A DNA stretch of 64,000 nt from Chloroflexota bacterium (GCA_965214295.1 OZ243944.1:4158426-4222425); one strand, 5' to 3'; positions 11,518 to 62,912 are shown, counted from the first letter of the stretch. A program made the numbers and translations. Notes: generated from the letters alone by a model not told the origin.

Positions 11518-11570
11518 GGCACCCGTCATTCCCACCACCGCCCTGCCATTGCGATGAAATAACGCCGATT

Positions 11571-11597
11571 CGTCATTCCCGCGCAAGCGGGAATCCA
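11571..11597. repeat. Hairpin-A repeat copy (CGTCATTCCCGCGCAAGCGGGAATCCA), followed at 11599-11643 by a hairpin-B copy (CCCTCTTCCCAGTGGGAGAGGGTCGGGGTGAGGG).
   Basis: Direct reading, in the sufB-sufD intergenic region. Confidence 0.65.
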
Positions 11598-11677
11598 CCC
11601 CCTCTTCCCAGTGGGAGAGGGTCGGGGTGAGGGTAGCCGGAGGGGGTGGATGTGTCCATTTCCTGAGGAGAGTACGT

Positions 11678-13111
11678 GTGAGTGTAATCTCACCTGCGCG
11701 TGTAGTCGTGCGGCGCCGCCGCCGCACATCCGTTGCGCGTGAGCCAACCATCACGGCGGCGGCGGTCGCCGCGCTGAATGCGTCGCGGGGCGACCCGGAC
11801 TGGGTACAAGACTTGCGCCGCGCCAGTTTTGCAGCGTGGGAACGCTTACCCATGCCCACCCCAACCACGGAAGGGTGGCGTCGCACCGACCTGCGGCCGA
11901 TCACGTCACGGCTGCACACCGTCAAGCCGGCAGCGCCCCGCAGCGACTTTCACGACGCGGAGCTAGGCGATCTCGACGCCGGCCTGCAAGAGGCGCTCGA
12001 CGTGTACTTCCCGGTAGGAGGACTGGTCATCCAGCAGAACTCCACGACCGTCCAGGAGACTCTGGCCGACGAGCTGGCGCGCCAGGGGGTGCTGTTTATG
12101 GACATCCATGCGGCCGTGCGCGAGCACCCCGATCTGGTGCGGCCCTATCTGATGAACGTCGTGCCGGTGGGCTGGCAGCCGGGCGAGCCGTCCAATGCCG
12201 GGAAGTTCGAGGCGCTACACGGCGCCTTGTGGTCGGGGGGCACGTTTATCTACGTCCCGCCCAACACCGAGGTCGAGTTGCCGCTGCGGATGCTCCAGTG
12301 GACCGGCACGCCGGGCGTGGGCAGCTTTCCGCATACCGTCGTCGTCGTTGATCGCAATAGCAGCGTGACGTGCGTGGAGGAGTTCCACTCCCCAACCTTG
12401 CCGGCCGCGGCCCCGCCCCTCTTTACCAGCGGCGTCACGGAGCTGTACGTGCAGGACAATGCGCGGCTCAACTTCCTATCACTCCACGAACAGGCAACCG
12501 ACGCGCACACTTTCGTCACGCAGCGCTGTCGGCTGGGGCGGGATGCGTATGTCAACTGGGTCGTGGTCGGGATGGGGAGCGCCTATACGCGGGCTACGGC
12601 CGACGTGGTGCTGGCCGGCCGCGGCGCCACGGCCGAGATGCTGGGGTTGGCATTCGGTACGGGCACCCAGGTCTTCGACTTCCACACGCTGCAAGACCAC
12701 GTGGCGCCGCACACCGACAGCGACCAGCTCTATAAGACGGCGATGCAAGACCGGGCGCGGCTGGTCTACGAGGGGTTGGTGGTGATCCAGCCCACCGCCG
12801 GCGAGTCGAACGGCTACCAGGCTAACCGCAACCTGTTACTCAGCAAGACGGCGAAGGCCGACTCGATCCCGATGCTCGAAATCAAGAACAACGAAGTGAA
12901 GTGTACGCACGGCTCGGCTACCGGTCCGGTAGAGCCGGAGCACCTGTACTACCTGCGGACACGCGGTCTGCCGCGCCCGGTGGCCGAGCGCCTGATTATC
13001 CAAGGATTCTTCGAGCCGATTGTCGAGCGCATGGGTGTCGCGGCCCTGCAAGACCAGCTGCGCCAGGCCATAGATCGCAAAATCGGCGGCCTGGACCGCG
13101 ACGCGGGGTAA
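11678..13111 (+). CDS. sufD: Fe-S cluster assembly protein SufD.
   Basis: SufB/SufD-family beta-helix C-terminus (...THGSATGPVEPEHLYYLRTRGLPRPVAERLII). The track ORF (11627) starts inside intergenic repeats. A GTG at 11678 is preceded by GAGGAG. Confidence 0.75.
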   Translation: MSVISPARVVVRRRRRTSVAREPTITAAAVAALNASRGDPDWVQDLRRASFAAWERLPMPTPTTEGWRRTDLRPITSRLHTVKPAAPRSDFHDAELGDLDAGLQEALDVYFPVGGLVIQQNSTTVQETLADELARQGVLFMDIHAAVREHPDLVRPYLMNVVPVGWQPGEPSNAGKFEALHGALWSGGTFIYVPPNTEVELPLRMLQWTGTPGVGSFPHTVVVVDRNSSVTCVEEFHSPTLPAAAPPLFTSGVTELYVQDNARLNFLSLHEQATDAHTFVTQRCRLGRDAYVNWVVVGMGSAYTRATADVVLAGRGATAEMLGLAFGTGTQVFDFHTLQDHVAPHTDSDQLYKTAMQDRARLVYEGLVVIQPTAGESNGYQANRNLLLSKTAKADSIPMLEIKNNEVKCTHGSATGPVEPEHLYYLRTRGLPRPVAERLIIQGFFEPIVERMGVAALQDQLRQAIDRKIGGLDRDAG

Positions 13112-13123
13112 CGGGCGCTCACA

Positions 13124-13240
13124 AGGGTAGGTAAACCGGGAAGACAGGTGGAATGAGCTTGTAGGGGCGTAGCAGGCAACGTCCCTTCCTACCCCTACGA
13201 AGGAGGGGGAGGGCTGGGGTGAGGCCCCACAGGGGGTCTC
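13124..13240. repeat. Partial MITE-like / hairpin-B repeat copy downstream of sufD (ACAAGGGTAGGTAAACC..., GTAGGGG...CCCCTAC, GGAGGGGGAGGGCTGGGGTGAGG).
   Basis: Its left end matches the GGTAGGT TIR family, and a hairpin-B core is present. Confidence 0.45.
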
Positions 13241-13273
13241 TATAACCCAGTAACGTGCGGAGCGGAAAGATCG

Positions 13274-13591: not shown

Positions 13592-13675
13592 GGGATACGA
13601 TGGTGCTGGCCCGGTTGTAAGGGCGCAGCATATTGCGCCCTTACCGGGTGAGTGCTACGGCGGCAAGGAAAGTGG

Positions 13676-15416: not shown

Positions 15417-15492
15417 GTCCACCAGCGACGGCGGGCGGGGGATGAGGTCAAATAGCCCAGGTAGCCACGCCAGGATGCAAGGAGCAACGCCG

Positions 15493-15810: not shown

Positions 15811-16010
15811 GCCGGGGTGCCATCCGCTCCTCCGTACACAGCAGGGGGAGGCCTAGAGAGGGGGGGCCAATGCAGTGTCCGGTCCCCTGTGGTCCCCTCG
15901 CTCCGCAGAGGGGTAGGCGCGGCATGCTGCCTCTCGGTTATGCTCCAGTGCGTATGCTACCCTGTCTTGGCTGATGACAGTGTCTCCGCATCGGTAGCTC
16001 GGCATGGCGT

Positions 16011-17731: not shown

Positions 17732-17746
17732 TCTGTGGAAGGCCCG

Positions 17747-18998: not shown

Positions 18999-19043
18999 CG
19001 CGGAGCCGCGCCGACCTTGATGAGGCGCTGTTGACATTGCCCG

Positions 19044-19128
19044 GTCATTCCCGCGCAAGCGGGAATCCAGCACGGATACGCCGTCTGCTTCCCGAGATAC
19101 CTGGATTCCGGCTTCCGCCGGAATGACG
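19044..19128. repeat. Inverted pair of hairpin-A repeats (GTCATTCCCGCGCAAGCGGGAATCCAG ... CTGGATTCCGGCTTCCGCCGGAATGACG) upstream of the cysteine synthase gene.
   Basis: Direct reading. The two copies have different stem sequences (CCGC/GCGG versus CGGC/GCCG), each self-complementary. Confidence 0.65.
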
Positions 19129-19220
19129 AAATGGGTTGGTGGAACCGCCTTCTATCTCGAATGTCAAACAACCTAGGTAGGAGCAAAGGGCCTGTGCCCC
19201 CGCGATTGGAATTGGATGGG

Positions 19221-20352: not shown

Positions 20353-21195
20353 CTACCTATCCGTTGACTGTCGCCGGAGCCGTGCCCGCAGTTGCTGCAG
20401 CTCGGTCTCGGCGGCGCGCCGCGCCAACCGTTCCGCCAGCCGGCCGGCCTGCTCGACGGCGGCCTGCGCTTCAGCCGCATCTCGTTCGGCCTCAGCCGCC
20501 TCGCGCGCCGCCCGCTCCGCCTCGCGCGCCGCCGCTACATCTTGCCAGCTCTCCAGGTAGCTCTCGGTCGCCGGATCGTAGAGCCGCGGCCACCCGTCAT
20601 CCCAGCACAGACTCACCCCCAGCACCGGGCTGTACCCCTTCAGCACGCCGTCCGGCGCCGTCGTCAGCTCAATTGGCTCATACTCCCCGGCCACCAGCCG
20701 CCCCCCGGCCAACCGCTGCCCGTGATACTCCCCCTGCTCAGTCGGATCGAAGCGCCAGTATTCCGGCACGCCGATGCGGGCATAGATGTCCCGCTTCCGG
20801 CCCACGTCCTCCCGTCCGGTGCTGGACGAAGCGATCTCCAGCACCCAGTCCGGTGGCTTGCCCACTTCCCACGGTAGGTAGAGCTTGCGTGGCCGAATGG
20901 CCTGGGCGTCCACCCCAAAGGCCAGGTACACGTCCGGGGACACGCGGACGTTGAGGTCACGCCGGTCATAGCAGAGGATCGTGTTGGCGTCGAGAAAGAC
21001 GTCGGGCCGGCGATTGAAGTCGGTGAAATGAGCCGAGAGGAGACCGAAGATTTCCAGCAGTTGGAGGTTTTGTTCCATCGCATCAGGCTTCAGGACCGAC
21101 TCGTCAGGATCGTAGTCGAGCCGGTCGTAGTCGACCGGGCCCAACCGGCGATAGGGCAGCATGGTGGTCGTGGTGGTTGTGGCCATGGTTGCCAT
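20353..21195 (-). CDS. Uma2-family (DUF820) PD-(D/E)xK endonuclease-like protein with a C-terminal Ala/Glu/Arg-rich coiled-coil tail.
   Basis: PDVFLDANTIL...PDVYLAFGV...DWVLEIASSS...YARIGVPEYWRFDP match the Uma2 pattern. The C-terminal AREAERAAREAAEAERDAAE tail is low complexity. Confidence 0.65.
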   Translation of the reverse strand: MATMATTTTTTMLPYRRLGPVDYDRLDYDPDESVLKPDAMEQNLQLLEIFGLLSAHFTDFNRRPDVFLDANTILCYDRRDLNVRVSPDVYLAFGVDAQAIRPRKLYLPWEVGKPPDWVLEIASSSTGREDVGRKRDIYARIGVPEYWRFDPTEQGEYHGQRLAGGRLVAGEYEPIELTTAPDGVLKGYSPVLGVSLCWDDGWPRLYDPATESYLESWQDVAAAREAERAAREAAEAERDAAEAQAAVEQAGRLAERLARRAAETELQQLRARLRRQSTDR

Positions 21196-21463
21196 CGCAG
21201 ATCTCCAAGTAAGCACCACCGGCCCCAGCCTGCGCTTGGGTGATGTCACAGACGGCGCCGGTCGCTCCCAACCCCTCACCAGCATAACTCAAGAGGTGCC
21301 AAGTTGCTACGATATCGGCCGCAAGACGGTGGCTCCGCAGTTAATCACAACACCCCGCCGCAAAGACACACCTCGTCGGCTACTGCACCAACAATCCTCT
21401 CGGTAAGCGGGTCTCCCATCTTTGCCCAGCACTTCTTCTCTGTGCTCTCTGCGCTCTCTGTGG

Positions 21464-23364: not shown

Positions 23365-25941
23365 TCACCTGAGCTTGGCGCGGCGCAGGCGGAGGGAGTT
23401 GGTGACGACGGAGATGCTGGAGAAGGCCATCGCCGCGGCTGCAAGCATCGGACCGCCGAGGGCAGCGAGCAAGCCGAGCGCAGCCAGCGGAATCATCGCA
23501 GTGTTGTAGCCGAAGGCCCAGAAGAGGTTCTGCTGGATCGTCCGCATGGTCCGGCGCGAGAGGCGGATAGCTGCCGGCACACTCCGCAGATCGCCACGCA
23601 TCAGCGTGATCGCGGCCGTTTCCATCGCTACGTCGGTGCCGGTCCCCAGCGCGAAACCGACGTCGGCTGCGGCCAGCGCGGGCGCATCGTTGATACCGTC
23701 GCCGACCATGCCGACGACATGCCCCGCCGCGCGCAGCTTGGCGACCTCTGCCGCCTTGGCTTCCGGCCGGACCTCGGCGCGGACATGGTCGGAGGCGATG
23801 CCGACCGCGCGGCCGATAGACTCGGCGGCGCGGCGATTGTCGCCGGTGAGCAGGTAGACCTCCAGCCCTAGCCGGCGGAGTGCGGCGACGGCCGCAGCCG
23901 ACGTCGGCTTGACCGTATCGGCAATCCCAATGGCCCCGGCCGGCTTACCGTCAACGGCGACCAAAGCCACGGTACGGCCCTCCGCTTCCAGGTCGTCGGC
24001 CACCTGCACCCAGGGGGCACGAGACTCCCGCGTGCGCGGGAATGACGGGGCGGCGAAACCGCTGACGCCGTGCGCTGCCAGCAGCCGGGCAGTGCCGACC
24101 AGCACCTCGCTCCCCGCGACCTGGGCCGCGACGCCCTGGCCTGGCGTGACGACAAAGGCCGCCGGCTCAGGCAACGTCAGCCCGACCGTGCGGGCGTGGG
24201 CGACGACGGCCGCCGCGAGCGGATGCTCGGACCGCGACTCGGCCGCCGCGGCGAGCCGCAGTACGTCGGTAACGTCATGTCCATTCAGCGGTACCACGTC
24301 CGTCACTTGCGGTTGGCCTTCCGTGACCGTGCCGGTCTTGTCGAGGACGATGGCGGTGAGGGCATGTGCTCGCTCTAGGCTGGCCGCGTCCTTGACTAGG
24401 ATGCCCTGCTCGGCGCCGCGCCCTGTCCCGACCATAATCGCGGTCGGGGTAGCCAGCCCAAGGGCGCAGGGGCAGGCGATCACCAGCACCGTCACGGCCG
24501 TAAGCAGCGGTCCGGCTATCCCGCTGCCGCTCGATCCCAGCCAGAGCCACGCCATGAAGGTGAGTGCCGCCAGCGCCAGTACGACCGGGACAAAGACCGC
24601 CGACACCCGGTCGGCCAGGCGCTCGATGGGCGCTTTCGATCCCTGCGCCTGCTCGACCAGCCGGACAATCTGTGCCAGCGCAGTGTCGGCACCGACGCGC
24701 GTGGCCCGCACTGTGAGGGCGCCGTGCCGGTTGAGCGTCGCGCCGGTCACGTCGTCGCCCACCTGCTTGGTGACGGGCAAGCTCTCGCCGGTCAGCATGG
24801 CCTCGTCCACACTCGACTCCCCGTCGACCACCACGCCGTCTACGGGGACTTTCTCGCCTGGACGCACGAGCACGACATCTCCCACGCGCACCGACTCGAC
24901 CGGGACAGCGACCGTCTCGCCGGCACGGAGGAGCTGTGCCGTCTTTGCCTGTAGCCCGATCAACGCTCTGATTGCGGCACCGGCCCGGCCTTTCGCGCGC
25001 GCTTCCAGCCAGCGACCGAGCAAAATCAGTGTCACGATGACCGCCGCGGTCTCGAAATACAGCGGGGGATGCGCGGCGAGCGGTCCCTGCTCCGGGATAG
25101 CCACCGCCAGTGTATAGACGCTGTAGCCGTAGGCGGCAGCCGAGCCGAGCGCAATCAGTGTATCCATATTGGCGGCAAGGTGGCGTGCCATCCGCCCGGC
25201 CGTAGCGAAGAACTGCCATCCGCAGATGAAGACTACGATGGTCGTCAGGAGCAGCTCCAGCAGTGCGCTGCCGGGGAACCGCAGCATGAGCATACTCAGC
25301 GCCAGCACCGGCGCGGAGAGCAGCGCGGCCACGATGAAGAGACGTTGCTGGGACTGCGCGTAGGTCTCCGACCGCCAGAGCTGAACTATCCGCCGGGGAT
25401 CAAGGTGGTGCCGTTCCGGCGGGTCGTCCTTGCGCTCCGGTCGGCCGGCCGCCGCGCCCAACGTCTCTGCGCGACGCTCCGCGGCGCCATACCCGGCCGT
25501 CTCCACCGCGCCGACGACCGCCTGGGGAGGCGCGCTGCCTTGCACGGTGGCCGATTCGGTGGCGAGGTTGACTGCCACCGCCTGCACACCGGCAACCTTG
25601 CCGATGGCCCGCTCGACCCGGCGGGCGCAGGACGCACAGGTCATGCCGGTGATGGCAAGCTCCAGGGGCACCGCCGGTTGGGGGGGACGGGCTTTGTAAC
25701 CGGCGGCTGCGACGGCAGCGACCAGATCGTCTCGACCGGTTTGGTCGGGGGCATAGCGCACGGTCGCCTGCTCGGTGGCGAGGTTAACCGTAGCCTCGGC
25801 CACGCCCTCGACTTTGTTGAGCGCCTGTTGGACACGGTTGGCGCAGGAGGCACAGGTCATCCCCTCAATGGGGAACGTCTCGGTGACGAGCGCAGTCGGC
25901 ACTGGCGTTTCACTCACAGCCGTCTCTGGTGCTACAGCCAT
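23365..25941 (-). CDS. copA: Copper-translocating P-type ATPase CopA.
   Basis: Two N-terminal HMA domains ([22 protein letters not shown]), [30 protein letters not shown]. The start is taken at MAVAPETAV (25941). The 67 upstream codons of the track ORF are hairpin-repeat derived. There is an in-frame repeat insertion at about 24023-24050. Confidence 0.9.
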
Positions 25942-25996
25942 CGCAGTCTCCTTGGGCAGCCTCGCGCCGCACCATCGGCCCCCGTAATTGCGCCGC

Positions 25997-26084
25997 ACCC
26001 TCCCGTCATTGCGGCGCAGGCCGCAATCCAGGCCGCCCGGAGGCCCACGCATGGCCCTGGATTCCCGCTTGCGCGGGAATGACG
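25997..26084. repeat. Inverted pair of hairpin-A repeats between csoR and copA (GTCATTGCGGCGCAGGCCGCAATCCAGG ... CTGGATTCCCGCTTGCGCGGGAATGACGG).
   Basis: Direct reading. Confidence 0.65.
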
Positions 26085-26151
26085 GCCGGCGGGCTGGGGG
26101 AGGCCGGCAACCCCACCACCTGAATAAGGTGGCAACGTTCATCAGGCAGCC

Positions 26152-27767: not shown

Positions 27768-27926
27768 CTCTATAGCCGTTCGATCAAGTTCAGCAGAATA
27801 GCAGTGCTGATGCCAGCTATGACCGCGCTGGATTCCGGCCTACGCCGGAATGACGGGGCGGTAGTGCCGGTGCTTGGATACTCCCCGCTTGATAGACTGG
27901 GGGCGCGAGGTAGTAGCAGGCCAAGC

Positions 27927-29126: not shown

Positions 29127-29253
29127 CCAGTGGAGCGGGGGGGCCACTGGAGGCAGGCCTGTCCCGTCACTCCGGCTTCCGCCGGAGTCCAGGCCGCAAC
29201 CATCCGGAATGACGGGATACAGTCAAGGGGGGTGAGGGAGGAAGACGACTGCG

Positions 29254-38090: not shown

Positions 38091-38308
38091 AGGACGACCG
38101 GGGATGAGGCTCGTCATTCCCGCGCACGCGGGAATCCATGTCCTCCTGCGGATGCGGGGGGACCATAGGGGGCCGGAGGTGCGTAGCTGCCCCTACCTTG
38201 CCCCGCGCTCGTATTGGCTGATACCGTCACCTGGTAGGCGCCAGCGCACCGGCAGGCGGTGTCTTGCCGCGTCCATAGAGCGTTAAGCGCATGGAGGGGG
38301 CTTCAGGA

Positions 38309-39727: not shown

Positions 39728-39729
39728 GC

Positions 39730-40200
39730 GCCCCCCCCCGGCCCCCTCGCCTCACCCCCGCCTAGACAAGGGTAGGTTTCTTGTGTAGGGGCGCGATTCA
39801 TCGCGCCCAAGCACTCGTCATTGCGGGGCCAGCCGCCATCCAGGGCCATACGTGGCCCCCCCACCCATCATTGCGGCGGAAGCCGCAATCCACGTCCCCC
39901 TGCGGCGCGGTGAACTGGGGAGCGTGCCCCTGCTCCGGTCTACCGGTGGCCGCTCCCTCTCCCAGGGGGAGAGGGTTCTGACTAGGGTAGGTATGGGACC
40001 AGGGCAATGCTCGCCACGCTTGTCACCAGGTAGGGGCGCGATTGATCGCGCCCTGGGCGTCATGAATGACGCCCCTACCAGCCTGTTTTCCGTTTTACCT
40101 ATTTACCTACCCCTGTGAGGGGAGAGGGTTGGGGTGAGGGCAGCCGGGGGGTGAGGCCCGGATGCCCCACCCTGCTACCATGCACTTGAGCCACGGATAC
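39730..40200. repeat. 470-bp intergenic repeat island (gnd to ABC exporter). It holds two tandem copies of a composite MITE-like element: a GGTAGGT-containing TIR-like end, a GGGGCGCGATTCATCGCGCCC hairpin, hairpin-A copies at 39816-39845 and 39866-39895, and hairpin-B copies (CCCTCTCCC-AGGG-GGAGAGGGTT...GGGGTGAGGG).
   Basis: Direct reading of the sequence. The element ends (ACAAGGGTAGGTTTCTTGTGTAGGGG at about 39762; CTGACTAGGGTAGGTATGGG at about 39981; TTTACCTACCCCTGTGAGGGG at about 40095) match the TIRs of the element at 61436-61652. Confidence 0.6.
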
Positions 40201-45805: not shown

Positions 45806-46008
45806 GCGGTATCCACACGGATACGCAGGATGGACAGGATGGGTGAGGTATTGGCTCCCCGTCATTGCGGCGGAAGCCGCAATCCACGTCTCCCTGCGTT
45901 GCGGGGGGACCGTAGGGGTGCCGGCATCCCTCCCGTCATTGCGACGGAAGCCGCCATCCAGACCGACCGGGAGGCCACGAATAGCCTCGGAATGACGGGA
46001 GGCGATTG

Positions 46009-49273: not shown

Positions 49274-49376
49274 CCGCTGAAGGCTACACCGCTCGCCTCG
49301 ACGTAATCCCTCCGGCTGGCCCCGACGTGGTATGGTGAATCTACCGGTACGTTGCCTCGCCTCGGAGGACTGCACC

Positions 49377-49985
49377 ATGGTTGCAACCCATGCCGCACCG
49401 CCAGCGCCCGCAGCACAGGCTCCGCTCACCCCGGACGACCTGCTCGCACTCGAAGCCGAGCACGACGCCCGCTACGAGCTGGTCAACGGCGAATTGAAGG
49501 ACCGGGACATGACTAGCCCAGAACATGGAGTCATCGCGCTTAACTTCGGGAGTGAGCTCCGCGCTTTTGTACGTAACAGGAACCTGGGCGTAGTAATGAC
49601 GGGGGCGCGCTTTCTACTCAGAGATGAGCCGTCACTACTGCGAATTCCCGATGCTGCCTTTATATCGAGAGCAAATCTACCCACCGGTAGGCTGAGAGGT
49701 GGCCACTTTCGCGGTGCCCCCGATCTGGCCGTCGAGGTCGTGTCGCCCACCGACAAGGCCGGCGAGTTGGCGGTGAAGATCGCCGACTACCTCATGGCCG
49801 GCACGCAGCAAGTGTGGATTGTGGAGCCGACTACGCGCACCGTGACCGTCTACCGACCGGGCGGCGCGGCCCGCGTCTACGGTGCCGACGATACGCTCGA
49901 CGGCGGCGACCTCCTGCCCGGCCTCGCGCTCCCCGTCGGGGACCTGTTCGACTATGGCGTAGTGGCTGCGTCCCGGGCAGAGTAG
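49377..49985 (+). CDS. Uma2-family (DUF820) endonuclease-like protein, tandem copy 1.
   Basis: YELVNGEL, PDAAFI..., PDLAVEVVSPTDK, KIADYLMAGTQQVWIVEP are the canonical Uma2 PD-(D/E)xK blocks. RBS GGAGGA 8 nt upstream of the ATG. Confidence 0.75.
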   Translation: MVATHAAPPAPAAQAPLTPDDLLALEAEHDARYELVNGELKDRDMTSPEHGVIALNFGSELRAFVRNRNLGVVMTGARFLLRDEPSLLRIPDAAFISRANLPTGRLRGGHFRGAPDLAVEVVSPTDKAGELAVKIADYLMAGTQQVWIVEPTTRTVTVYRPGGAARVYGADDTLDGGDLLPGLALPVGDLFDYGVVAASRAE

Positions 49986-50014
49986 TAGCGAATCCGCAGC
50001 AGGAGGACTGCACC

Positions 50015-50641
50015 ATGGCTGTGACTCTCGCCGCGCCGCCACTGCCCGCAGCACAGGCTCCGCTCACCCCGGACGACCTGCTCGCACTCGAAGCCGAGCA
50101 CGACGCCCGCTACGAGCTGGTCAACGGCAAATTGCAGGATCGGAGTGAGCTGCAGGAGGAAGGAATGCCGAATGCAGAGCATGGAGCGACAAGCGCCCGA
50201 ATCGTCAGTGAGTTGGATACACACGTGCGCGCCGGCAGGTTGGGCATAGTGCTGGTCGAGTGCGGCTTTGTCCTATCGGACGACCCGCCTACAGTGCGTA
50301 TTCCCGACGTCTCACTCATGGCTACGGAACATGTACCTGCGGACGGTCTTCCCAGAGGCTACTTCCCAGGGGCCCCCGATCTGGCCGTCGAGGTCGTGTC
50401 ACCCACCGACAAGGCCGGTGCGCTGATGCTCAAGATCGCCGACTACCTCACGGCCGGCACGCAGCAGATATGGATTGTGGAGCCGACTACGCGCACCGTG
50501 ACCGTCTACCGACCGGGCGGCGCGGCCCGCGTCTACGGTGCCGACGATATGCTCGACGGCGGCGACCTCCTGCCCGGCCTCGCCCTCCCCGTCGGCGCGC
50601 TCTTCGAGTATGGCGTGACGGCTACGTCCCGGGCAGAATAG
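50015..50641 (+). CDS. Uma2-family (DUF820) endonuclease-like protein, tandem copy 2.
   Basis: It has the same blocks (YELVNGKL, PDLAVEVVSPTDK, KIADYLTAGTQQIWIVEP). The 5' 90 nt and 3' 210 nt are near-identical to copy 1, and the middle is divergent. Confidence 0.75.
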   Translation: MAVTLAAPPLPAAQAPLTPDDLLALEAEHDARYELVNGKLQDRSELQEEGMPNAEHGATSARIVSELDTHVRAGRLGIVLVECGFVLSDDPPTVRIPDVSLMATEHVPADGLPRGYFPGAPDLAVEVVSPTDKAGALMLKIADYLTAGTQQIWIVEPTTRTVTVYRPGGAARVYGADDMLDGGDLLPGLALPVGALFEYGVTATSRAE

Positions 50642-50733
50642 CGCCTATTCACCACCGGCGGCCATCGACGGAGCGGGGTGCCTGGCGGTATCGCTGCGTC
50701 GGAGTGAACGGACCGTGGGGAGAACGACCACCG

Positions 50734-51876
50734 ATGCTCGACCGCGCTATCACGTACAACTTCGAGTACGACCGCAAGGTGCGGGCCGGCTTCATCGGGT
50801 GCGGTGGCCACACCTACCGCAACATCTTCCCCACGTTCCAGTACGCGCCGATTGACCTCATTGCCGTCTGCGATTTGCAGCCGGAGCGCGCCGCCGCTTT
50901 CGCACGGCAATTCGGCGCCCGCCGAGCCTACACGAACCACCGGGAGATGCTGGCCCGCGAGCAGCTCGACGCCGTATTCGTCGTCACCGGCTACGACGAG
51001 TACCATCGGCCACGCTACCCCCAACTAGCAATGGAAGCGCTGCGCGCGGGTACCCACGTGTGGATCGAGAAGCCGCCGGCCGCAACGCTCGCAGAGGTCG
51101 AGGCGATGCAGACCGTCAGCCGGGCTACCGGCCGGTTTGTGTCGGTCGGTTACAAGAAGATGTTCTTCCCGGCTATCGCCAAGGCCCGCGAGATCAGCCA
51201 ACGACGCGAGTTCGGGCAACCCACGTCGCTGGCCCTCCGGTATCCCCAGGAGCTACCACCAGCGGAGTCCCGCTCGGATGACCGCGCCATGCAGGGCTTT
51301 CTCGATCACTTCTTTCATCCGGCCTCGATTGTGCATACGATCATGGGGCCGGTGACGACCGTCAGCTATCAGTGGGAACCCCGTACCGGCGGCAGCGTAA
51401 GCACGATGACCTTCGCCAGCGGCGCGGTGGCGGCGATGCACCTCGCCGGCAGCCACTCGTGGGCGGGGCCACTGGAGCGATTGGAGATCGTCGGTGAGGG
51501 CGCGTTTGTCGTCGTAGAGAACGGCGTCAACCTACGGTACTACCGGCCCGGCGCCCGGCGCGGCCAGGGTGGGTACGGGCGAGCGGCGAGCTACATCGGG
51601 GCGGACGAGCAGACGCCGGTGGTCTGGGAGCCGGAGTTCTCGCTCGGCCAGCTCTACAACAAAAACCTCTTTCTGCTGGGCTACGTACCGGAAGTGCTTT
51701 ACTTCTGCGAGTGCGTGCTGGACAACCACCCACCCCAGATCGCAAATCTTGACGACACGCTGGCGATGATGCGCTGGTACGAGTGTTATCGGCAGCCGGC
51801 CGGACGCTGCATCGCTATCCCAGAGCACCGGGTCGGGGGGATGAGGCCGCCTGGATTCCCGCTTGCACGGGAATGA
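50734..51876 (+). CDS. Gfo/Idh/MocA-family NAD(P)-dependent oxidoreductase.
   Basis: Rossmann N-terminus (RAGFIGCGGHTYRNIFP), EKPPAATLAE, and overall family layout. The last 9 codons and the stop ([11 protein letters not shown]) lie inside a hairpin-A repeat copy. Confidence 0.75.
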   Translation: MLDRAITYNFEYDRKVRAGFIGCGGHTYRNIFPTFQYAPIDLIAVCDLQPERAAAFARQFGARRAYTNHREMLAREQLDAVFVVTGYDEYHRPRYPQLAMEALRAGTHVWIEKPPAATLAEVEAMQTVSRATGRFVSVGYKKMFFPAIAKAREISQRREFGQPTSLALRYPQELPPAESRSDDRAMQGFLDHFFHPASIVHTIMGPVTTVSYQWEPRTGGSVSTMTFASGAVAAMHLAGSHSWAGPLERLEIVGEGAFVVVENGVNLRYYRPGARRGQGGYGRAASYIGADEQTPVVWEPEFSLGQLYNKNLFLLGYVPEVLYFCECVLDNHPPQIANLDDTLAMMRWYECYRQPAGRCIAIPEHRVGGMRPPGFPLARE

Positions 51877-51982
51877 CAGGCGGACGGGCACGATTGATTG
51901 CGCCCAAGGCGCAGCATGCTGCGCTCCTACACCCCCTCTCTATCGCTCGGCGATGGAGAGGGGGGCCGGGGGTGAGGACCCA

Positions 51983-57296: not shown

Positions 57297-57362
57297 CTCG
57301 ATACGCTCCATTATACGTCTTGCCGGAAACGGGGGACAAGGCGGACACACTCGCCTTGCGCC

Positions 57363-58779: not shown

Positions 58780-60135
58780 GTGATGGCCAGCTCCAGTAAC
58801 GGTACGGCGCACATACGGTCAGCTTCGGCGGTGGCTCCGGGGAGCCGCCGTGCGGTGCTGCAACGGGCCGCGGCGACCCTAGCCACCTCCCTCTTGCTTG
58901 CGGCGTGTGATCTGGGCGAGGACCTCACGGACGTACCGATGACCGCCGAAGACCCGGCGGAAGTGATTTACACGACGTGGGGGACACCGGAGCGAGTGCA
59001 GCAGGAAGACTGGACCCTCCTCAGCTTCCAACGGAACTATCCAGCTATCACGGTCAACGTCATCGCTGCGCCTACTGCTGCCGAGCACGTTGCGAGCCTG
59101 TACAGCTTGTTTGCGAGTGGCAGCCTGCCGGACCTGGTCCACCTGCCCTCTTGGTCGGCGCCGACGTTTTATGCGGAAGATGCCGTCCTGCCGCTCGGCG
59201 ACTATATGCGGCGCGACGGGTTTCGCCCTGACGACCTCACGGCGCCGTTCGATGTCTGCACCTACCAGCGCGAGTGGGTTGCCTTGCCGCGAGGCAACAA
59301 CGGCCTCTACGTCGTGTTCTACAACCGTAGCCACTTTAGCGCCGCCGCCGTATCCTCGCCGCCCCTGAGCTGGACCTGGCAAGACTTCCTCACTGCGGCG
59401 CAACAGCTGACCATGGCGGCGAACGGTGTTGCGCCAGCACGTTGGGGCACCACCTTGCACGGCATTGACGAGGCGTATCACGCCTGGCTGTGGGGCAATG
59501 GCGGAGACGAGCTGCTGAACCGAAACGGCGCACCGGCGATCCACGAGCCGCTGGCTATCGGAGCGTTGCAGTGGCTAGCCGACCTACACTTGCAGCACGG
59601 TGTCGCGCCAGCGCCCAACATCTTTGCCGGCAACGGGTTTGCCGCCTTCGCGCGTGGTGACGTGGCGATGTGGTATGCGCCAGCGGAGGCCGAGCTGGCC
59701 CTGGCGCAGCAGGAAGTATCGTTCGACTGGAGTATGGCCCCCCAACCACGGGGCAATCTGGGGGTTCAAGGACACTATCGGCCGGACGTTGCTGCCATCC
59801 TCAAGGGCAGTCGTCAGCCCGAAGAGGCCTGGGAGCTATTACAGTTCTTGGTTGCCCCCGACGTGCAGCAAGCGGAATGGGAAAATCGGCTGTGGCACCC
59901 GCAAGCGCCGTCCTTGCTTGCCGAAGAGACCTACCTCCAACCCCCGGAGCCGCCCTACGACCGGCGGCCGGCCGTGCCCGGTGCGCTCGTCCGTCCTCGC
60001 ACGCCTTATCTGATCTCGCGGATTGACGAGGTCCGGGCGGTAGCGCGGGCGGAGTTCCGCAAGCTCTGGTTCGGCACCAGCACCGCCGAAGAGATCACGG
60101 CAGTCATCGCCGCCAAGATCACCGACGTGCAGTAA
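58780..60135 (+). CDS. ABC transporter sugar-type substrate-binding lipoprotein (family 1 solute-binding protein). Orphan.
   Basis: Tat-like SRRAVLQRAAATLATSLLLAACD signal with lipobox. SBP_bac_1-like composition with many Trp/aromatic residues. No permease or ATPase genes adjacent. Confidence 0.75.
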   Translation: MMASSSNGTAHIRSASAVAPGSRRAVLQRAAATLATSLLLAACDLGEDLTDVPMTAEDPAEVIYTTWGTPERVQQEDWTLLSFQRNYPAITVNVIAAPTAAEHVASLYSLFASGSLPDLVHLPSWSAPTFYAEDAVLPLGDYMRRDGFRPDDLTAPFDVCTYQREWVALPRGNNGLYVVFYNRSHFSAAAVSSPPLSWTWQDFLTAAQQLTMAANGVAPARWGTTLHGIDEAYHAWLWGNGGDELLNRNGAPAIHEPLAIGALQWLADLHLQHGVAPAPNIFAGNGFAAFARGDVAMWYAPAEAELALAQQEVSFDWSMAPQPRGNLGVQGHYRPDVAAILKGSRQPEEAWELLQFLVAPDVQQAEWENRLWHPQAPSLLAEETYLQPPEPPYDRRPAVPGALVRPRTPYLISRIDEVRAVARAEFRKLWFGTSTAEEITAVIAAKITDVQ

Positions 60136-60235
60136 TCAGCGGCCGGTAGCCAGTAGGCAGTGGCGCCGAACATCATTCCCGGTCCTCGTCCGTCATTCCC
60201 GCGCAGGCAGGAATCCAGTAGAATCATATCCGGCC
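60090..60235. repeat. Direct-repeat copy 1 (3' end of the SBP gene plus about 95 bp downstream, including a hairpin-A copy at 60191-60219).
   Basis: Near-identical to 60857-61020: ...GAGATC(A/G)CGGCAG(T/C)CATCGCCGCCAAGATCACCGACGT(G/T)CA(G/A)TA(A/G)TCAG(C/T)GGCCG(G/A)TAGCCAGT...CGTCATTCCCGCGCAGGC(A/G)GGAATC(C/T)AGTAGAATCATATCCG. Confidence 0.7.
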
Positions 60236-60278
60236 ACCGTAGGCCGCGCGCCACCGGTCGTCACCGAGGAGGTGACAA

Positions 60279-60506
60279 ATGGCAGCCGTGAAGGCACCGA
60301 AGCCGGAAGAATCCGATATGCTCTACGAGCAGTACGGCAAGCCCTTGGAGGCGCAACATCGCGGAGAGTATCTTGCCGTCTCCCCCCAAGGCGATACGCT
60401 CATTGGCCCTGACTTGGATCAGCTTATAGATGAAGCGATAGAGAAGCTAGGATCGGGCAACTTCATTTTCCAGATAGGAGATGTTTCCGTAGGAAAATGG
60501 CTGTAA
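60279..60506 (+). CDS. Small acidic protein (75 aa) of unknown function. It resembles the small DUF proteins that accompany retropepsin-like protease genes.
   Basis: Strong SD (GAGGAGGTGA, 6-nt spacer) before the ATG. The 3' end overlaps the next ORF by 10 nt. Sequence MLYEQYGKPLEAQHRGEYLAVSPQGDTLIGPDLDQLIDEAIEKLGSGNFIFQIG. Confidence 0.55.
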   Translation: MAAVKAPKPEESDMLYEQYGKPLEAQHRGEYLAVSPQGDTLIGPDLDQLIDEAIEKLGSGNFIFQIGDVSVGKWL

Positions 60507-60856
60507 ATCGGCGGGTCATTAGCACGCATTTCCCCTATATCCCGCTGCTGCTTGAACTAGGTCACCACGTAGTCAGGCTTGAAGCTCTCGTTGATACTGG
60601 GTTTGACGGAGCTATCGTTGTGCCGCCGGACCTGGTGGCCGACGTAGAGCTACCATTGACGTACCTCCGCTGGACACTCGCCGATGGCTCACAGGTGACT
60701 GCGCCAGCCTACCGGGGCACGCTGCAAATTGGCGACATGACACCATTCCGCGTGACGGTCACGGTGCTTGGCGACGAGACCATTATCGGTCGTGCGGCCA
60801 CCAACCGCTTCAAGGTTACTTTTGACCACGGCCGGCAAGTGATCGTCGAGCCCTAG
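60497..60856 (+). CDS. Retropepsin-like (clan AA) aspartic protease domain protein.
   Basis: 119 aa with LEALVDTGFDGAIVVP (the DTG catalytic motif in its hydrophobic context) and a C-terminal IIGRAATNRFKVTFD typical of bacterial/archaeal retropepsin-like proteins. Confidence 0.7.
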   Translation: MAVNRRVISTHFPYIPLLLELGHHVVRLEALVDTGFDGAIVVPPDLVADVELPLTYLRWTLADGSQVTAPAYRGTLQIGDMTPFRVTVTVLGDETIIGRAATNRFKVTFDHGRQVIVEP

Positions 60857-61020
60857 CATCCCTGCATCGCCGAGGAGATCGCGGCAGCCATCGCCGCCAA
60901 GATCACCGACGTTCAATAGTCAGTGGCCGATAGCCAGTGTTCAGTGGCCCCGAACGTCATTCCCGGCCCTCGTCCGTCATTCCCGCGCAGGCGGGAATCT
61001 AGTAGAATCATATCCGATGT
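60857..61020. repeat. Direct-repeat copy 2 (a pseudo-3'-end of the SBP gene encoding ...EEIAAAIAAKITDVQ*, plus a hairpin-A copy at 60975-60999).
   Basis: It begins immediately after the protease gene stop. See copy 1. Confidence 0.7.
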
Positions 61021-61073
61021 ATGCCGCATACCACGAGTTACCACCGCGAGAACGGAGCCGGGAGAGGCGAAGA

Positions 61074-61327
61074 TGATGGCAACCCGAACGGTCAAGCGGT
61101 ACGAGCACAAGGATGGGCAACAGGTATTGCCCGTTACTCCCCAATGCGCCCGACTGCATCGTGAAGCTGTGCCAGCGCCGGACGACGTGCCTACCAGTCG
61201 GCGGCGGCGCGAGGAGCTTCTGGCCTTTGCCGGCATCTGGAGCGACTTGGATGGTGACCGCATGATCGAGGAACTGTACGCCGCGCGCCACGAGTCGCCA
61301 CCGAGTCCACCCGTATCCCCAGCCTGA
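61074..61327 (+). CDS. Small hypothetical protein (84 aa) with an antitoxin-like C-terminal motif. Orphan.
   Basis: RBS GGGAGAGG 5 nt before ATGATG. The C-terminal ...LLAFAGIWSDLDGDRMIEELYAARHES resembles the G-[IL]-W-x-D...EE[IL]Y..R tail seen on many type II antitoxins. No toxin partner is adjacent. Confidence 0.4.
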
Positions 61328-61435
61328 ACCGCTACCAGCAAGGCTAATTGGTAGTTATCCCCGCCCGGCTCATGCTCTTTGACGCTGTAGGTACGCCGGC
61401 CAAGCCCTCTAGGAGCGCGATGCGGGGGTGGGTGG

Positions 61436-61652
61436 CTGACAGGGGTAGGTTTTTTGTCAGGGCGTGATTCATTGCGCCTCGCCCCTCGTCATTCCCAGTA
61501 TCTCATCCGTCATTCCGGCGCAAGCCGGAATCCAGGGCCATTCGGAGGGCCTGTTCCAGTCCCTACTCCCCCTCTCCACATGGTGGAGAGGGGGCCGGGG
61601 GTGAGGTCTGCCCCACCCCCGCGGCTCTCTACGAAAAACCTACCCTTGTCAG
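61436..61652. mobile_element. MITE-like composite element of about 217 bp with 20-bp terminal inverted repeats (CTGACAGGGGTAGGTTTTTT ... AAAAACCTACCCTTGTCAG). It is flanked by a 12-bp direct repeat GGGGGTGGGTGG (61424-61435 and 61652-61663).
   Basis: TIRs and flanking direct repeat read directly from the sequence. Internally it carries a GGCGTGATTCATTGCGCC hairpin, a hairpin-A copy (61508-61536), and a hairpin-B copy (CCCCCTCTCCACATGGTGGAGAGGGGGCCGGGGGTGAGG). The right TIR supplies the stop codon of the ABC ATPase gene. Confidence 0.6.
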
Positions 61653-62680
61653 GGGGTGGGTGGTGAGAGGGCGGCTGGCGGGATGGCTTGGCCGGTGCTA
61701 TACAGGTCGCGGATGATGGCCTCGATCTCCGGCTCCTCAATCGTCAGGTCCCGCAGCTCGTAGCGCGTGGCGAGCGCGGCGATCAGGGCTGCGGCGGTGG
61801 TCTCCTGCCGACGAAATCGCAGCCATTGCCGCGGGCCGTCCACGCGCACAACCGTCGCGTGCGGCACCTGCACGGGGCCGCCGGCACTCACGAAATCCAC
61901 GACGAGCGTCCGTTCCTGCCCGTACCGCTCCCGGATCGTCTCCAATGCCCCGTCGTACAGCAGTCGTCCGCGGTCAATAATCAGCAGGCGCTCGCAAAGC
62001 TGGCTGATGTCGGCCATATCGTGGGTCGTGAGCAGCACCGTGACGGCGCGCTCGCGGTTGAGCCGCCGGAGAAACTCGCGAATACGGTGCTTGGCTACCA
62101 CGTCGAGGCCGATGGTCGGCTCATCAAGGTAGAGAATCTCGGGGTCGTGCAGCAAGGCCGCCGTCAGATCGCCACGCATCCGCTGACCCAGCGAAAGCTG
62201 ACGTACCGGCGTGTCCAGGAACGGCCCCAGCTCCAGCAACTCCGTGCAAAATTCCAGGTTGGCCCGGTGCCGCGCGGCTGGCACACGGTAGATGAAGCGC
62301 AGCAGCTCCAGCGACTCGATGAGCGGCAGGTCCCACCACAATTGCGTGCGTTGCCCGAACACCACGCCGATCCGCCGGGCGAGTGCTTTCCGGCGCTGGT
62401 GGGGCACTAGCCCGGCCACCTCGATTCGGCCGCTACTTGGCACGAGGATGCCGGTGAGCATCTTGATCGTGGTGGATTTACCGGCCCCGTTCGGCCCGAT
62501 GCAGCCCACCATCTCGCCCCGCTCGATGCGGAAGGTGATCCTGTCCACCGCGGGGACGATGCGGCCGCGTCGCTCGACCAGGTTACGCAGTGCCCCAAGC
62601 GCGCCACGGTGATGGTGCGCCACACGAAAGGTCTTGCGTAAGTCCTCGACTTCAATGAGCGCGGTCATCTGACGGGCCAA
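61649..62680 (-). CDS. ABC transporter ATP-binding protein (ABC-2 / DrrA-like) with a C-terminal extension.
   Basis: Walker A GPNGAGKST, signature LSLGQRMR, Walker B ILYLDEPTIGLD, and H-loop THDM. The last codons (PPTP-stop) are encoded by the MITE flank/TIR. Confidence 0.8.
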   Translation of the reverse strand: MARQMTALIEVEDLRKTFRVAHHHRGALGALRNLVERRGRIVPAVDRITFRIERGEMVGCIGPNGAGKSTTIKMLTGILVPSSGRIEVAGLVPHQRRKALARRIGVVFGQRTQLWWDLPLIESLELLRFIYRVPAARHRANLEFCTELLELGPFLDTPVRQLSLGQRMRGDLTAALLHDPEILYLDEPTIGLDVVAKHRIREFLRRLNRERAVTVLLTTHDMADISQLCERLLIIDRGRLLYDGALETIRERYGQERTLVVDFVSAGGPVQVPHATVVRVDGPRQWLRFRRQETTAAALIAALATRYELRDLTIEEPEIEAIIRDLYSTGQAIPPAALSPPTP

Positions 62681-62802
62681 AGCTGCACCGCAGTTGGAAC
62701 GATTATATCGTGCAGCTTTGGCTCGTCATCGTCACTAGGATCCGTTCGCATTTCCCGGTCATTGCTCTGAAAATAATTCCCAGCCGCCACGCCCGCCCCG
62801 TT

Positions 62803-62912
62803 CGTCATTCCCGCGCAAGCATGTCCCGTACCCTCGATACAGGGCGGGAATCCAGCGCGGGTGTGCTGTCTGCTACCCAAGTCGCCTGGATTCCGGCGGA
62901 AGCCGGAATGAC
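62803..62912. repeat. Inverted pair of hairpin-A repeats. The first copy's loop is interrupted by a 22-nt insertion (GTCATTCCCGCGCAAGC-atgtcccgtaccctcgatacag-GGCGGGAATCCAG ... CTGGATTCCGGCGGAAGCCGGAATGACG).
   Basis: Direct reading, between the ABC ATPase and the permease genes. Confidence 0.6.

What the first reader, a model, noticed from the sequence alone, without database searches (positions are those of the whole stretch)
11524..62912. Abundant GNRA-tetraloop hairpin repeat (GTCATTCC-SSSC-GNRA-GSSS-GGAATCCAG) with compensatory stem variants, often in inverted pairs
At least 20 copies occur in 64 kb. Approximate positions: 11571, 19044, 19101, 24023, 25997, 26056, 27829, 29167, 38112, 39816, 39866, 45860, 45934, 51851, 60191, 60975, 61508, 62803, 62886. 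The core is an 8-bp stem closed by GCAA or GGAA on one strand. Stem sequences differ between copies (ATTCCCGC/GCGGGAAT, ATTCCGGC/GCCGGAAT, ATTGCGGC/GCCGCAAT, ACTCCGGC/GCCGGAGT), but always by paired, complementarity-preserving changes, and the GTCATTCC...GGAATCCAG flanks are conserved. Stem conservation with sequence covariation argues for selection on structure (RNA hairpin or DNA cruciform), not simple proliferation. Copies frequently occur as head-to-head inverted pairs 30-60 bp apart. They sit at operon junctions, for example between csoR and copA, and upstream of the cysteine synthase and the deacetylase. The conserved-strand loop is a GNRA tetraloop, which would make a stable RNA hairpin if transcribed in that orientation.
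Basis: seen in the sequence. Interest (0 to 1): 0.55.

Follow-up and report, generated by a model that had tools for sequence, protein, structure and literature searches.

The report
Known mobile DNA hairpin repeat (NTS/REP)
The repeated hairpin is real, but it belongs to an already described family of small mobile DNA palindromes (CGTC-tagged REPs, called dRS3/NTS in Neisseria), here found in an uncultured soil Chloroflexota bacterium; it is not a new RNA structure.

Summary
The repeat is real. There are 18 full copies against 0 expected by chance, plus one split copy and five half copies. The stem variants are compensatory: 96% of cells pair, and no shuffle of 500 reached the observed covariation. 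Copies form tag-outside inverted pairs in intergenic gaps.

It is not new. Its consensus, CGTCATTCCCGC-GNAN-GCGGGAATCCAG, matches the published Neisseria Transformation Sequence (dRS3, family CGTC-1 of tagged REPs). In Neisseria this element is bound as a single-stranded DNA hairpin by the small GIY-YIG nuclease SsnA.

The window comes from an uncultured Chloroflexota lineage. Eight sister species carry the repeat, with gains, losses and one precise hairpin deletion.

Three independent in-frame 39-bp insertions lie in the copA coding sequence, one of them in this window. This shows a mobile DNA element, like the Rickettsia palindromic elements.

The GNRA-tetraloop RNA reading fails. Only 9 of 18 loops are GNRA, and loops flip strand at orthologous sites. 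There is no U-tract and no Rfam match.

No ssnA gene lies in the window or in the 8 sister loci. Another Chloroflexi genome does have an NTS-flanked ssnA.

Verdict: a new member of a known kind, of modest interest.

The parts
11572..11598 (+). NTS/CGTC-1 copy in the sufB-sufD intergenic gap. It is canonical NTS with one mismatch and a GCAA loop.
   Evidence: An orthologous copy is present in L002, L003, L004 (decayed), L005 and L008. The hairpin is deleted in L006 and the loop is flipped in L002, L003 and L004.
11525..11532 (+). 5' half copy (CGTCATTCC) directly after the sufB stop codon.
   Evidence: It is conserved in the sister species.
19044..19127 (.). Tag-outside (HH) heterodimer upstream of the cysteine synthase (PALP) gene. 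Arm B is 19044-19070 (+, stem ATTCCCGC). Arm A is 19101-19127 (-, stem ATTCCGGC).
   Evidence: As ssDNA it folds to -24.5 kcal/mol, z = -4.2. The dimer with its spacer is 81% identical to 62844-62915. It is absent at the orthologous site in the sister species.
24020..24046 (-). NTS copy inside the copA coding sequence in sense orientation. It is part of a net +39 nt (13 aa, ...PSFPRTRES...) in-frame insertion in the nucleotide-binding domain.
   Evidence: The insertion is absent from all 7 sister copA genes.
26005..26083 (.). HH heterodimer between csoR and copA. The arms are 26005-26031 (+, stem ATTGCGGC) and 26057-26083 (-, stem ATTCCCGC).
   Evidence: The dimer with its spacer is 80% identical to 45928-45991.
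27828..27854 (-). Single copy between the FAD-binding gene and the deacetylase gene, antisense to both, with a GTAG loop.
29166..29213 (.). Full copy 29166-29192 (+, stem ACTCCGGC, flipped loop TTCC) with an inverted 5' half copy at 29206-29213.
38113..38139 (+). Single copy between the DUF2071 gene and the 6-phosphogluconate dehydrogenase gene. It is followed by a second repeat module at 38145-38171.
39817..39893 (+). Two tandem (head-to-tail) copies at 39817-39843 and 39867-39893, of the ATTGCGGC stem subfamily.
45861..45996 (.). Copies at 45861-45887 (+) and 45935-45961 (+) with an inverted half copy at 45989-45996. They lie between convergent genes.
51851..51877 (-). Single copy between convergent genes. 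It overlaps the last codons of ORF 50260-51876.
60192..60218 (+). Copy after the solute-binding-protein gene. It lies inside the left copy of a 156-nt duplication.
   Evidence: D3.
60956..61002 (+). Half copy at 60956-60963 plus full copy at 60976-61002, inside the right copy of the 156-nt duplication.
61488..61535 (+). Half copy at 61488-61495 plus full copy at 61509-61535.
62804..62912 (.). HH dimer. The left arm, 62804-62855 (+), is split by a 23-nt insertion. The right arm, 62886-62912 (-), has the flipped loop TTCC.

Best explanation
The repeat is the Chloroflexota representative of the CGTC-1 family of tagged repetitive extragenic palindromes. This family is called dRS3/NTS in Neisseria, is related to RPE-6 of Rickettsia, and corresponds to the 'Ssn-related motif'. 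It is a short DNA-level element of about 39 bp: an unpaired CGTC tag, an 8-bp stem, a 4-nt loop and an unpaired CCAG tail.

Shown here: it spreads and turns over in the genome, mostly into intergenic gaps, often as tag-outside heterodimers, and occasionally in frame into genes.

Inferred: the hairpin is kept because the element is recognised as a single-stranded DNA hairpin. The CGTC strand gives it direction. The recogniser would be a small Ssn-family GIY-YIG ssDNA endonuclease encoded elsewhere in the genome. In Neisseria, SsnA binds the hairpin and cuts a few nucleotides upstream. The palindrome may also be restored by hairpin-templated repair.

Any effect on neighbouring transcripts is a by-product at individual copies, not the reason the family exists.
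For: Sequence identity to the published family:
- The consensus of 43 copies, CCGTCATTCCCGCGnAAGCGGGAATCCAGG, fits the published NTS, CGTCATTCCCGCGMAVGCGGGAATCYRG, at every position (PMC11893778).
- 6 window copies pass the paper's own criterion of at most 1 mismatch. 8 pass its SRM regex, against 0.85 in shuffles.
- All CGTC-1 features from PMC3733652 are present: tag, 8-bp stem starting with AT, 4-nt loop, CCA tail, HH dimers, positions between unidirectional or convergent ORFs, intragenic units and no adjacent transposase.

Mobility and turnover:
- Three independent net +39-nt in-frame insertions lie in copA. Site A is in L001 only, site B is in L001, L002, L004 and L005, and site C is in the window only.
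- A separate metagenome copA (L098) carries four translated copies.
- The same intergenic gap is occupied differently in sister species.
- The 20-nt hairpin is precisely deleted in L006.
- Whole dimers are repeated together with their spacers.

DNA rather than RNA:
- Loops are inverted at orthologous sites.
- The covariations are transversions without wobble intermediates.
- Both orientations occur.
- The hairpin is stable as ssDNA, at -9 kcal/mol and z = -3.1.

Partner protein elsewhere:
- Ssn homologs in N. gonorrhoeae, Aeromonas, Azospirillum and Photobacterium are each flanked by this repeat.
- A Chloroflexi MAG (P0124, L089) has an ssnA gene flanked by canonical NTS copies.
- 2 of 120 metagenome contigs fetched with the arm-A 29-mer have an Ssn ORF directly next to the repeat.
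- SsnA acts on ssDNA only, not on RNA or dsDNA.
Against: No Ssn-family ORF was found in the window or in the 8 syntenic sister loci (about 155 kb more). The search used an HMM built from 120 family members, run with hmmsearch --max on six-frame ORFs of the window and all 80 genome loci. So the partner is unproven for this lineage.

Even in Neisseria, SsnA is shown to be a nuclease that limits transformation, not a transposase. The mobilising activity of CGTC repeats is still unknown (PMC3733652, PMC11893778).

The paper reports that changing the palindrome sequence while keeping the structure abolishes SsnA activity. One enzyme might therefore not serve all three stem subfamilies seen here (ATTCCCGC, ATTCCGGC, ATTGCGGC).

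Covariation counts sequences, not events. Much of it reflects amplified subfamilies and dimer arms.
Confidence: 0.72

Rival explanations
1. The repeats are relic palindromes with no living partner. In this view a formerly mobile CGTC family is now only drifting. Its stems are kept complementary by hairpin-templated (quasi-palindrome) correction during replication, not by any protein.
For: No ssnA or transposase gene lies in the window or in the 8 sister loci. Many copies are decayed, halved or split. PMC3733652 itself proposes that CGTC families may be heading for extinction. In-situ loop inversion is the signature of template switching.
Against: There are lineage-specific insertions. copA site A is in L001 only and site C is in the window only. 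The PALP-upstream dimer is in the window only. These point to activity after the species split. Density is high, at about 24 sites in 64 kb, and many copies are perfect.
Confidence: 0.13
2. The repeat is an RNA-level element. Transcribed copies would form stable hairpins, with GNRA tetraloops, that stabilise, process or terminate mRNAs at operon junctions. Selection on this RNA structure would maintain the family.
For: Nearly all copies lie in transcribed intergenic gaps between co-directional or convergent genes. REPs in E. coli are reported to act as 3'UTR regulators (bioRxiv 10.64898/2026.03.23.713779). PMC3733652 argues that many REPs are transcribed.
Against: Only 9 of 18 loops are GNRA. 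Loops flip strand at orthologous sites. Dimers place both strands in the transcript. There is no U-tract and no Rfam match. Copies are lost or deleted in sister species at conserved operons. Copies are translated inside copA. The covariations are C-G to G-C transversions. The same 29-mer occurs in contigs from 40 to 69% GC, which fits a mobile DNA element better than a host-specific RNA signal.
Confidence: 0.08
3. The repeat is a classical REP/REPIN mobilised by a RAYT, an IS200/IS605-type Y1 transposase.
For: The architecture is the same: hairpin units, inverted doublets that repeat as a whole, and intergenic location.
Against: The tag is CGTC, not the GTAG that RAYTs cleave. No Y1 transposase is found among about 50 window ORFs. 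PMC3733652 found no transposase association for any CGTC family.
Confidence: 0.04
4. The repeat is a double-stranded DNA site: either an operator for a palindrome-binding regulator, or an attachment site for a recombinase, as dRS3 is for the Neisseria filamentous-phage recombinase.
For: The core is a perfect palindrome. In Neisseria, dRS3 is a known phage integration target (PMC11893778 introduction).
Against: The neighbouring genes are functionally unrelated. Copies occur inside a coding sequence. The asymmetric flanks are conserved. No prophage or recombinase is present in the window.
Confidence: 0.03

Closest known systems
Neisseria Transformation Sequence (NTS) / dRS3 and the Ssn-related motifs (SRM) recognised by the GIY-YIG ssDNA nuclease SsnA (Nat Commun 2025, PMC11893778)
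   Same: The consensus is the same 28 nt. The directional flanks are the same: CGTC upstream, and a C right after the palindrome. The copy number is high, and the repeats cluster around genes. Both stem variants found here (ATTCCCGC and ATTCCGGC) are found next to ssnA genes in other organisms.
   Different: The host is a 65% GC soil Chloroflexota, not a proteobacterium. No ssnA gene was seen in the sampled DNA of this lineage. Loops are more varied, including inverted loops. A third stem subfamily (ATTGCGGC) is present. Nothing is known about natural transformation in this host.
CGTC-1 family of tagged REPs (Di Nocera et al. 2013, PMC3733652)
   Same: Every descriptive feature matches: CGTC tag, 8-bp stem starting with AT, 4-nt loop, CCA tail, HH dimers including heterodimers, complementary stem subfamilies, intragenic units, and no linked transposase.
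   Different: [quoted passage not shown]
Rickettsia palindromic elements (RPE-6 = CGTC-1, per PMC3733652). That RPEs insert in frame into genes is reported in PMC3733652 and is established knowledge (Ogata et al. 2000).
   Same: In-frame insertion into functional protein genes: copA here, three sites, 13 aa each, all in the sense orientation.
   Different: The host here is free-living and high-GC. Insertions are polymorphic among sister species, and the loop inverted in situ within the coding sequence.
GTAG-type REP/REPIN-RAYT systems (E. coli BIMEs, Pseudomonas REPINs)
   Same: Hairpin units, inverted doublets that replicate as a unit, and mosaic intergenic arrays with other small repeats.
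   Different: The tag is different (CGTC, not GTAG). No Y1 transposase was found. The presumed partner belongs to a different enzyme superfamily (GIY-YIG).

Membership tests
CGTC-1 tagged REP (PMC3733652) | Unpaired CGTC (or TGTC/CCTC) tag at one end | tested here: met
   32 of 43 copies have CGTC. The rest are one-base variants: CGCC, GGTC, TGTC, CATC, CCTC.
CGTC-1 tagged REP (PMC3733652) | 8-bp stem beginning with A-T pairs, and a 4-nt loop | tested here: met
   The stems are ATTCCCGC, ATTCCGGC and ATTGCGGC. 96.4% of cells pair and the loop is 4 nt in all copies.
CGTC-1 tagged REP (PMC3733652) | Short unpaired tail fitting CCA | tested here: met
   33 of 43 copies end in CCAG, CCAC or CCAT.
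CGTC-1 tagged REP (PMC3733652) | Mostly HH dimers (tags outside), located between unidirectional or convergent ORFs | tested here: met
   All 5 dimers in the window have their tags outside. All copies but one are intergenic. The contexts are ++, -- or +-.
NTS / SRM-SsnA system (PMC11893778) | Match to CGTCATTCCCGCGMAVGCGGGAATCYRG with at most 1 mismatch, or to the SRM regex | tested here: met
   There are 6 NTS matches. There are 8 SRM matches, against a mean of 0.85 in shuffles.
NTS / SRM-SsnA system (PMC11893778) | A cd10448-type GIY-YIG gene (about 94-100 aa) in the same genome, typically flanked by the repeat | tested here: inconclusive
   None was found in the 64-kb window or in the 8 syntenic sister loci (about 155 kb), among the 80 genome loci scanned with a family HMM. 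That covers only about 1.5-5% of a roughly 4.3-Mb genome. The pair does exist in another Chloroflexi MAG (L089).
NTS / SRM-SsnA system (PMC11893778) | Binding and cleavage of the CGTC strand as ssDNA only | not testable with these tools
   This needs EMSA and nuclease assays. A DNA-parameter fold gives a stable hairpin at -9 kcal/mol.
GTAG REP/REPIN-RAYT | GTAG tag and an associated Y1 (IS200/IS605-like) transposase | tested here: not met
   The tag is CGTC. No Y1_Tnp hit was found among about 50 window ORFs. The whole genome could not be tested.
Rickettsia-type palindromic elements (RPE) | In-frame insertion into protein-coding genes that stay intact | tested here: met
   copA has insertions at three sites, each adding 13 aa, and the ORFs remain intact. 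L098 copA carries four copies in an intact 949-aa ORF.
Intrinsic (Rho-independent) terminator | GC-rich hairpin followed by a U-tract | tested here: not met
   None of the copies appears among terminator-like sites in 11-30 kb. The hairpin is followed by CCAG.
GNRA-tetraloop RNA hairpin | GNRA loop kept on the transcribed strand | tested here: not met
   9 of 18 window copies (23 of 43 overall) have GNRA on the tagged strand. The loop is inverted at orthologous sites. There is no Rfam match.

The most novel reading that the evidence does not exclude
This Chloroflexota lineage could be a natural laboratory for the still unknown way CGTC/NTS repeats move. It offers filled and empty sites among sister species, 39-bp in-frame insertions in copA, in-situ loop inversions, and heterodimer units that copy as a whole.

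The most novel reading not excluded is that the repeats are currently mobile here either without any Ssn nuclease or through an Ssn protein acting as the mobilising enzyme. The second case would make GIY-YIG/hairpin pairs a new class of single-strand transposition system, parallel to the RAYT/REP pairing.
Probability: 0.15. Interest if true: 0.6.

Novelty: new member of a known kind. Interest (0 to 1): 0.3.

Why it matters
The result explains a conspicuous feature of this genome without invoking a new RNA class. It also warns annotators. These hairpins are translated into spurious N-terminal extensions (for example the copA ORF start at 26142) and into real 13-aa inserts.

It extends the documented range of the NTS/CGTC-1 family, at full consensus identity, to a high-GC soil Chloroflexota clade. 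The sister-species comparison gives dated gain, loss and loop-inversion events. These could help to work out how this repeat class spreads, which is still unknown.

Tried and rejected
- My first pattern was mis-registered and found nothing. It was corrected.
- Exact-protein look-ups of two window proteins found no record.
- Rfam at gathering thresholds found only a tRNA-Val.
- The search for an ssnA gene in the window lineage took several routes, none successful:
  - tblastn with a recalled consensus found nothing.
  - A family HMM on six-frame ORFs of the window and 80 loci found nothing.
  - Two protein-database searches returned thousands of family members, but none could be assigned to this lineage. 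No hit came from a contig with the length of one of the sister chromosomes.
  - Picking the most GC-biased hit (P0189) led to a contig whose neighbouring genes do not resemble this lineage.
  - A metagenome scan with the arm-A 29-mer returned 120 contigs from many taxa (GC 40-69%). Two had adjacent Ssn ORFs, but none was demonstrably from this lineage.
- An apparent strong bias for the tagged strand to be the sense strand (window only) was dropped. After adding sister species and counting orthologous sites once, it fell to about 8 versus 3.
- The exact element ends could not be defined from copA sites B and C, because the flanking codons have diverged.
- The supplementary tables of the Ssn paper are not held, so its phylum list could not be checked for Chloroflexota.

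Full report
**Observation.** The window is 65% GC. The pattern GTCATTSCSGCNNNNGCSGSAATCCAG, with up to three mismatches, matches 18 times. None of 100 dinucleotide-preserving shuffles gave a match. The copy at 62803 is split by a 23-nt insertion. Five further 5' half copies (GTCATTCC) lie at 11525, 29206, 45989, 60956 and 61488. Each unit has an unpaired tag (usually CGTC), an 8-bp stem, a 4-nt loop and an unpaired tail (usually CCAG).

**Covariation.** I aligned 43 copies from the window and eight sister species and counted the stem pairs. 96.4% of cells pair. Three of eight pairs change on both sides: C-G to G-C at stem positions 4 and 6, and U-A to C-G at position 2. That is 21 cells. No shuffle of 500 reaches the observed score, and partners slid by 1-3 columns give only 18-46% pairing. 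The compensatory pattern is therefore real.

Two details are overstated. Five window copies carry a stem mismatch. The loop on the tagged strand is GNRA in only 9 of 18 copies; two loops are the reverse complement (TTCC), and the rest are GCAG, GCAC, GTAG or GCCA.

**Where the copies sit.** A GC3-based gene map plus Pfam scans of about 50 ORFs show an ordinary housekeeping neighbourhood. It includes the suf operon, cysteine synthase, csoR-copA, a deacetylase, 6-phosphogluconate dehydrogenase, ABC transporters and fatty-acid synthases. There is no transposase, no GIY-YIG gene and no Y1 transposase.

All copies but one lie in intergenic gaps between co-directional or convergent genes. The five inverted pairs all have their tags on the outside. 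They are heterodimers whose two arms carry different stems: arm A is ATTTCGTCATTCCGGCGGAAGCCGGAATCCAG and arm B is CCCGGTCATTCCCGCGCAAGCGGGAATCCAG. Whole dimers recur together with their spacers. Positions 19059-19130 and 62844-62915 are 81% identical, and 25998-26061 and 45928-45991 are 80% identical. So the doublet is itself a repeated unit.

Single units fold as ssDNA at -9 kcal/mol (z = -3.1). The 19041-19131 dimer folds at -24.5 kcal/mol (z = -4.2). No copy looks like an intrinsic terminator, and Rfam finds only a tRNA-Val in the window.

**Source organism and relatives.** A protein-guided scan of one genome per species placed the window in an uncultured Chloroflexota lineage. The eight closest loci are Chloroflexota MAGs. 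Five are complete chromosomes of 4.28-4.40 Mb, for example OZ250185.1. Their cysteine synthase is 87-94% identical to the window's, and gene order is conserved from sufB to csoR. All eight carry the repeat, at 1-7 copies per 21 kb. More distant Chloroflexota loci (73% identity or less) carry none in the sampled 21 kb.

**Turnover between species.** The copy 56 nt after sufB is orthologous in the window, L002, L003, L004, L005 and L008. It is decayed in L004. The 20-nt hairpin is precisely deleted in L006, and the region is replaced in L001. Its loop reads GCAA in the window and L008, TTGC in L003 and L004, TTTC in L002 and GAAG in L005. The loop has therefore inverted in place while the flanks stayed fixed.

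The gap upstream of the cysteine synthase gene is a mosaic. The window has an NTS dimer there. L002 and L007 have a single copy embedded among three other small repeat families. The other species have only one of those other families.

**Insertions in a coding sequence.** The strongest result comes from the copA P-type ATPase gene, which carries three independent in-frame insertions of net 39 nt (13 aa) in its nucleotide-binding domain. Each contains one repeat unit in the sense orientation.
- Site A is in L001 only and is a clean insertion: CTTTCCTCGACTGTCATTCCCGCGAAAGCGGGAATCCAG.
- Site B is in L001, L002, L004 and L005.
- Site C is in the window only, at copy 24020.

At site B the loop is GAAA in L002 and L004 but TTTC in L005. 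This changes the peptide from HSRESGNL to HSRFRGNL and is a second in-situ loop inversion.

An unrelated high-GC metagenome contig (L098) has an intact 949-aa copA with four translated units in the same domain. These are insertion events of a mobile DNA element, not conserved regulatory hairpins.

**What it is.** The literature search identified the sequence. Di Nocera et al. (PMC3733652) define CGTC-tagged REPs. Their family CGTC-1 has an 8-bp stem starting with AT, a 4-nt loop, a CCA tail, mostly HH dimers, complementary stem subfamilies, intragenic copies and no linked transposase. It equals dRS3 of Neisseria and RPE-6 of Rickettsia.

A 2025 study (PMC11893778) redefined the oriented form as the Neisseria Transformation Sequence, CGTCATTCCCGCGMAVGCGGGAATCYRG. 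It showed that the 94-aa GIY-YIG protein SsnA binds this sequence only as single-stranded DNA and cuts a few nucleotides upstream. SsnA has no activity on RNA, dsDNA or the reverse strand. ssnA homologs across bacteria are typically flanked by such motifs.

The consensus of the 43 copies fits the NTS at every position. Six window copies pass the paper's one-mismatch criterion and eight pass its degenerate SRM pattern, against 0.85 in shuffles.

**The partner protein.** I reproduced the association in public records. Ssn homologs of N. gonorrhoeae, Aeromonas caviae, Azospirillum lipoferum and Photobacterium are each flanked by this repeat. Their alignment keeps Y6, Y17 and E64, the residues mutated in the paper.

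A profile search returned family members named by NCBI as Chloroflexi, Anaerolineae and Caldilineae. One of them, P0124 in GCA_016716065.1, is flanked by canonical NTS copies. Two of these have an Ssn ORF directly beside the repeat.

For the window's own lineage, I found no Ssn ORF in the window or the eight sister loci. The presence of the partner in this lineage is therefore inferred, not shown.

**How it most likely works.**
- Shown: the element is a member of the CGTC-1/NTS family. It has inserted, decayed, been deleted and had its loop inverted since these species diverged. The hairpin is statistically maintained.
- Inferred: the hairpin and the asymmetric flanks are kept because the element is handled as an ssDNA hairpin by an Ssn-type nuclease encoded elsewhere. 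Hairpin-templated correction explains both the compensatory transversions and the loop inversions.
- Not known, even for Neisseria: which enzyme actually copies the element to new sites.

**Why the RNA reading is weaker.** Half of the loops are not GNRA, and loops flip at orthologous sites. Dimers put both strands into the transcript. Orientation at distinct single sites in co-directional contexts is about 8 sense to 3 antisense. Copies are dispensable at conserved operons, and some are translated. Individual copies may still affect mRNA fate, as reported for E. coli REPs. That would be a side effect.

**Verdict.** The element is a new member of a known kind, the NTS/CGTC-1 repeat in a soil Chloroflexota lineage. 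Its added value is a clear record of insertion, deletion and loop inversion among sister species.

Noticed in passing
window 60077-60232 and 60861-61016: A 156-nt segment is duplicated at 88% identity. It comprises the last codons of the solute-binding-protein gene plus an NTS copy. The two copies bracket a cassette of about 630 bp with two small ORFs: 60279-60506 (no Pfam hit) and 60497-60856 (a weak, sub-threshold Asp_protease_2 hit). This looks like a cassette inserted or duplicated at an NTS.
   Followed up: partly
window 11614-11632, 13206-13224, 40121-40139 (and about 61560-61610); sister loci at the sufB-sufD gap: A second small repeat family (CCCTCTCC...GGGAGAGGG.CGGGGTGAGGG) lies next to NTS copies. 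It is conserved at the sufB-sufD site in the sister species.
   Followed up: no
window 39789-39808, 40034-40053, 40055-40074, 51886-51905, 61460-61479: A third repeat family is a 20-nt palindrome, GGGCGCGATTCATCGCGCCC, often just upstream of an NTS tag. It is also present beside the NTS in L002 and L007.
   Followed up: no
window 38145-38171, 45892-45918, 15884-15910(-): A fourth module, CCCTGCG..GCGGGGGGACCRTAGGGG, directly follows NTS copies that have a CCAC or CCAT tail. The intergenic gaps are mosaics of several repeat families, like the Neisseria NIMEs or the E. coli BIMEs.
   Followed up: no
L083 (Azospirillum lipoferum 4B plasmid AZO_p3, NC_016623.1 254912-256390): In Azospirillum the NTS-flanked ssnA gene sits between sufB and sufC. 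In the window and its sister species, an NTS copy sits directly after sufB. This may be coincidence or a shared preferred site.
   Followed up: no
L098 85-2934 (metagenome contig Ga0315297_10002095): An intact 949-aa copA has four NTS units (three in a 45-nt tandem array) and a second 21-nt tandem repeat. All are translated within the nucleotide-binding domain, which seems to tolerate these inserts repeatedly.
   Followed up: partly
window 25990-26142; protein P0069: ORF callers read through NTS copies. The longest copA ORF starts at 26142 and translates both csoR-copA NTS arms (SFPRKRES...). A database Ssn protein (P0069) is annotated with the N-terminus MSFPRKRES, which is a translated NTS. 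The likely true copA start is near the conserved MAVAPETAV.
   Followed up: partly
window 62804-62855: An NTS copy is interrupted inside its 3' arm by a 23-nt insertion (ATGTCCCGTACCCTCGATACAGG). It still forms the left arm of an HH dimer.
   Followed up: no
window 49364-50641: A tandem duplication of about 640 bp at 90-92% identity covers Uma2-family (PF05685) genes. A third Uma2 gene lies at 20353-21285.
   Followed up: no
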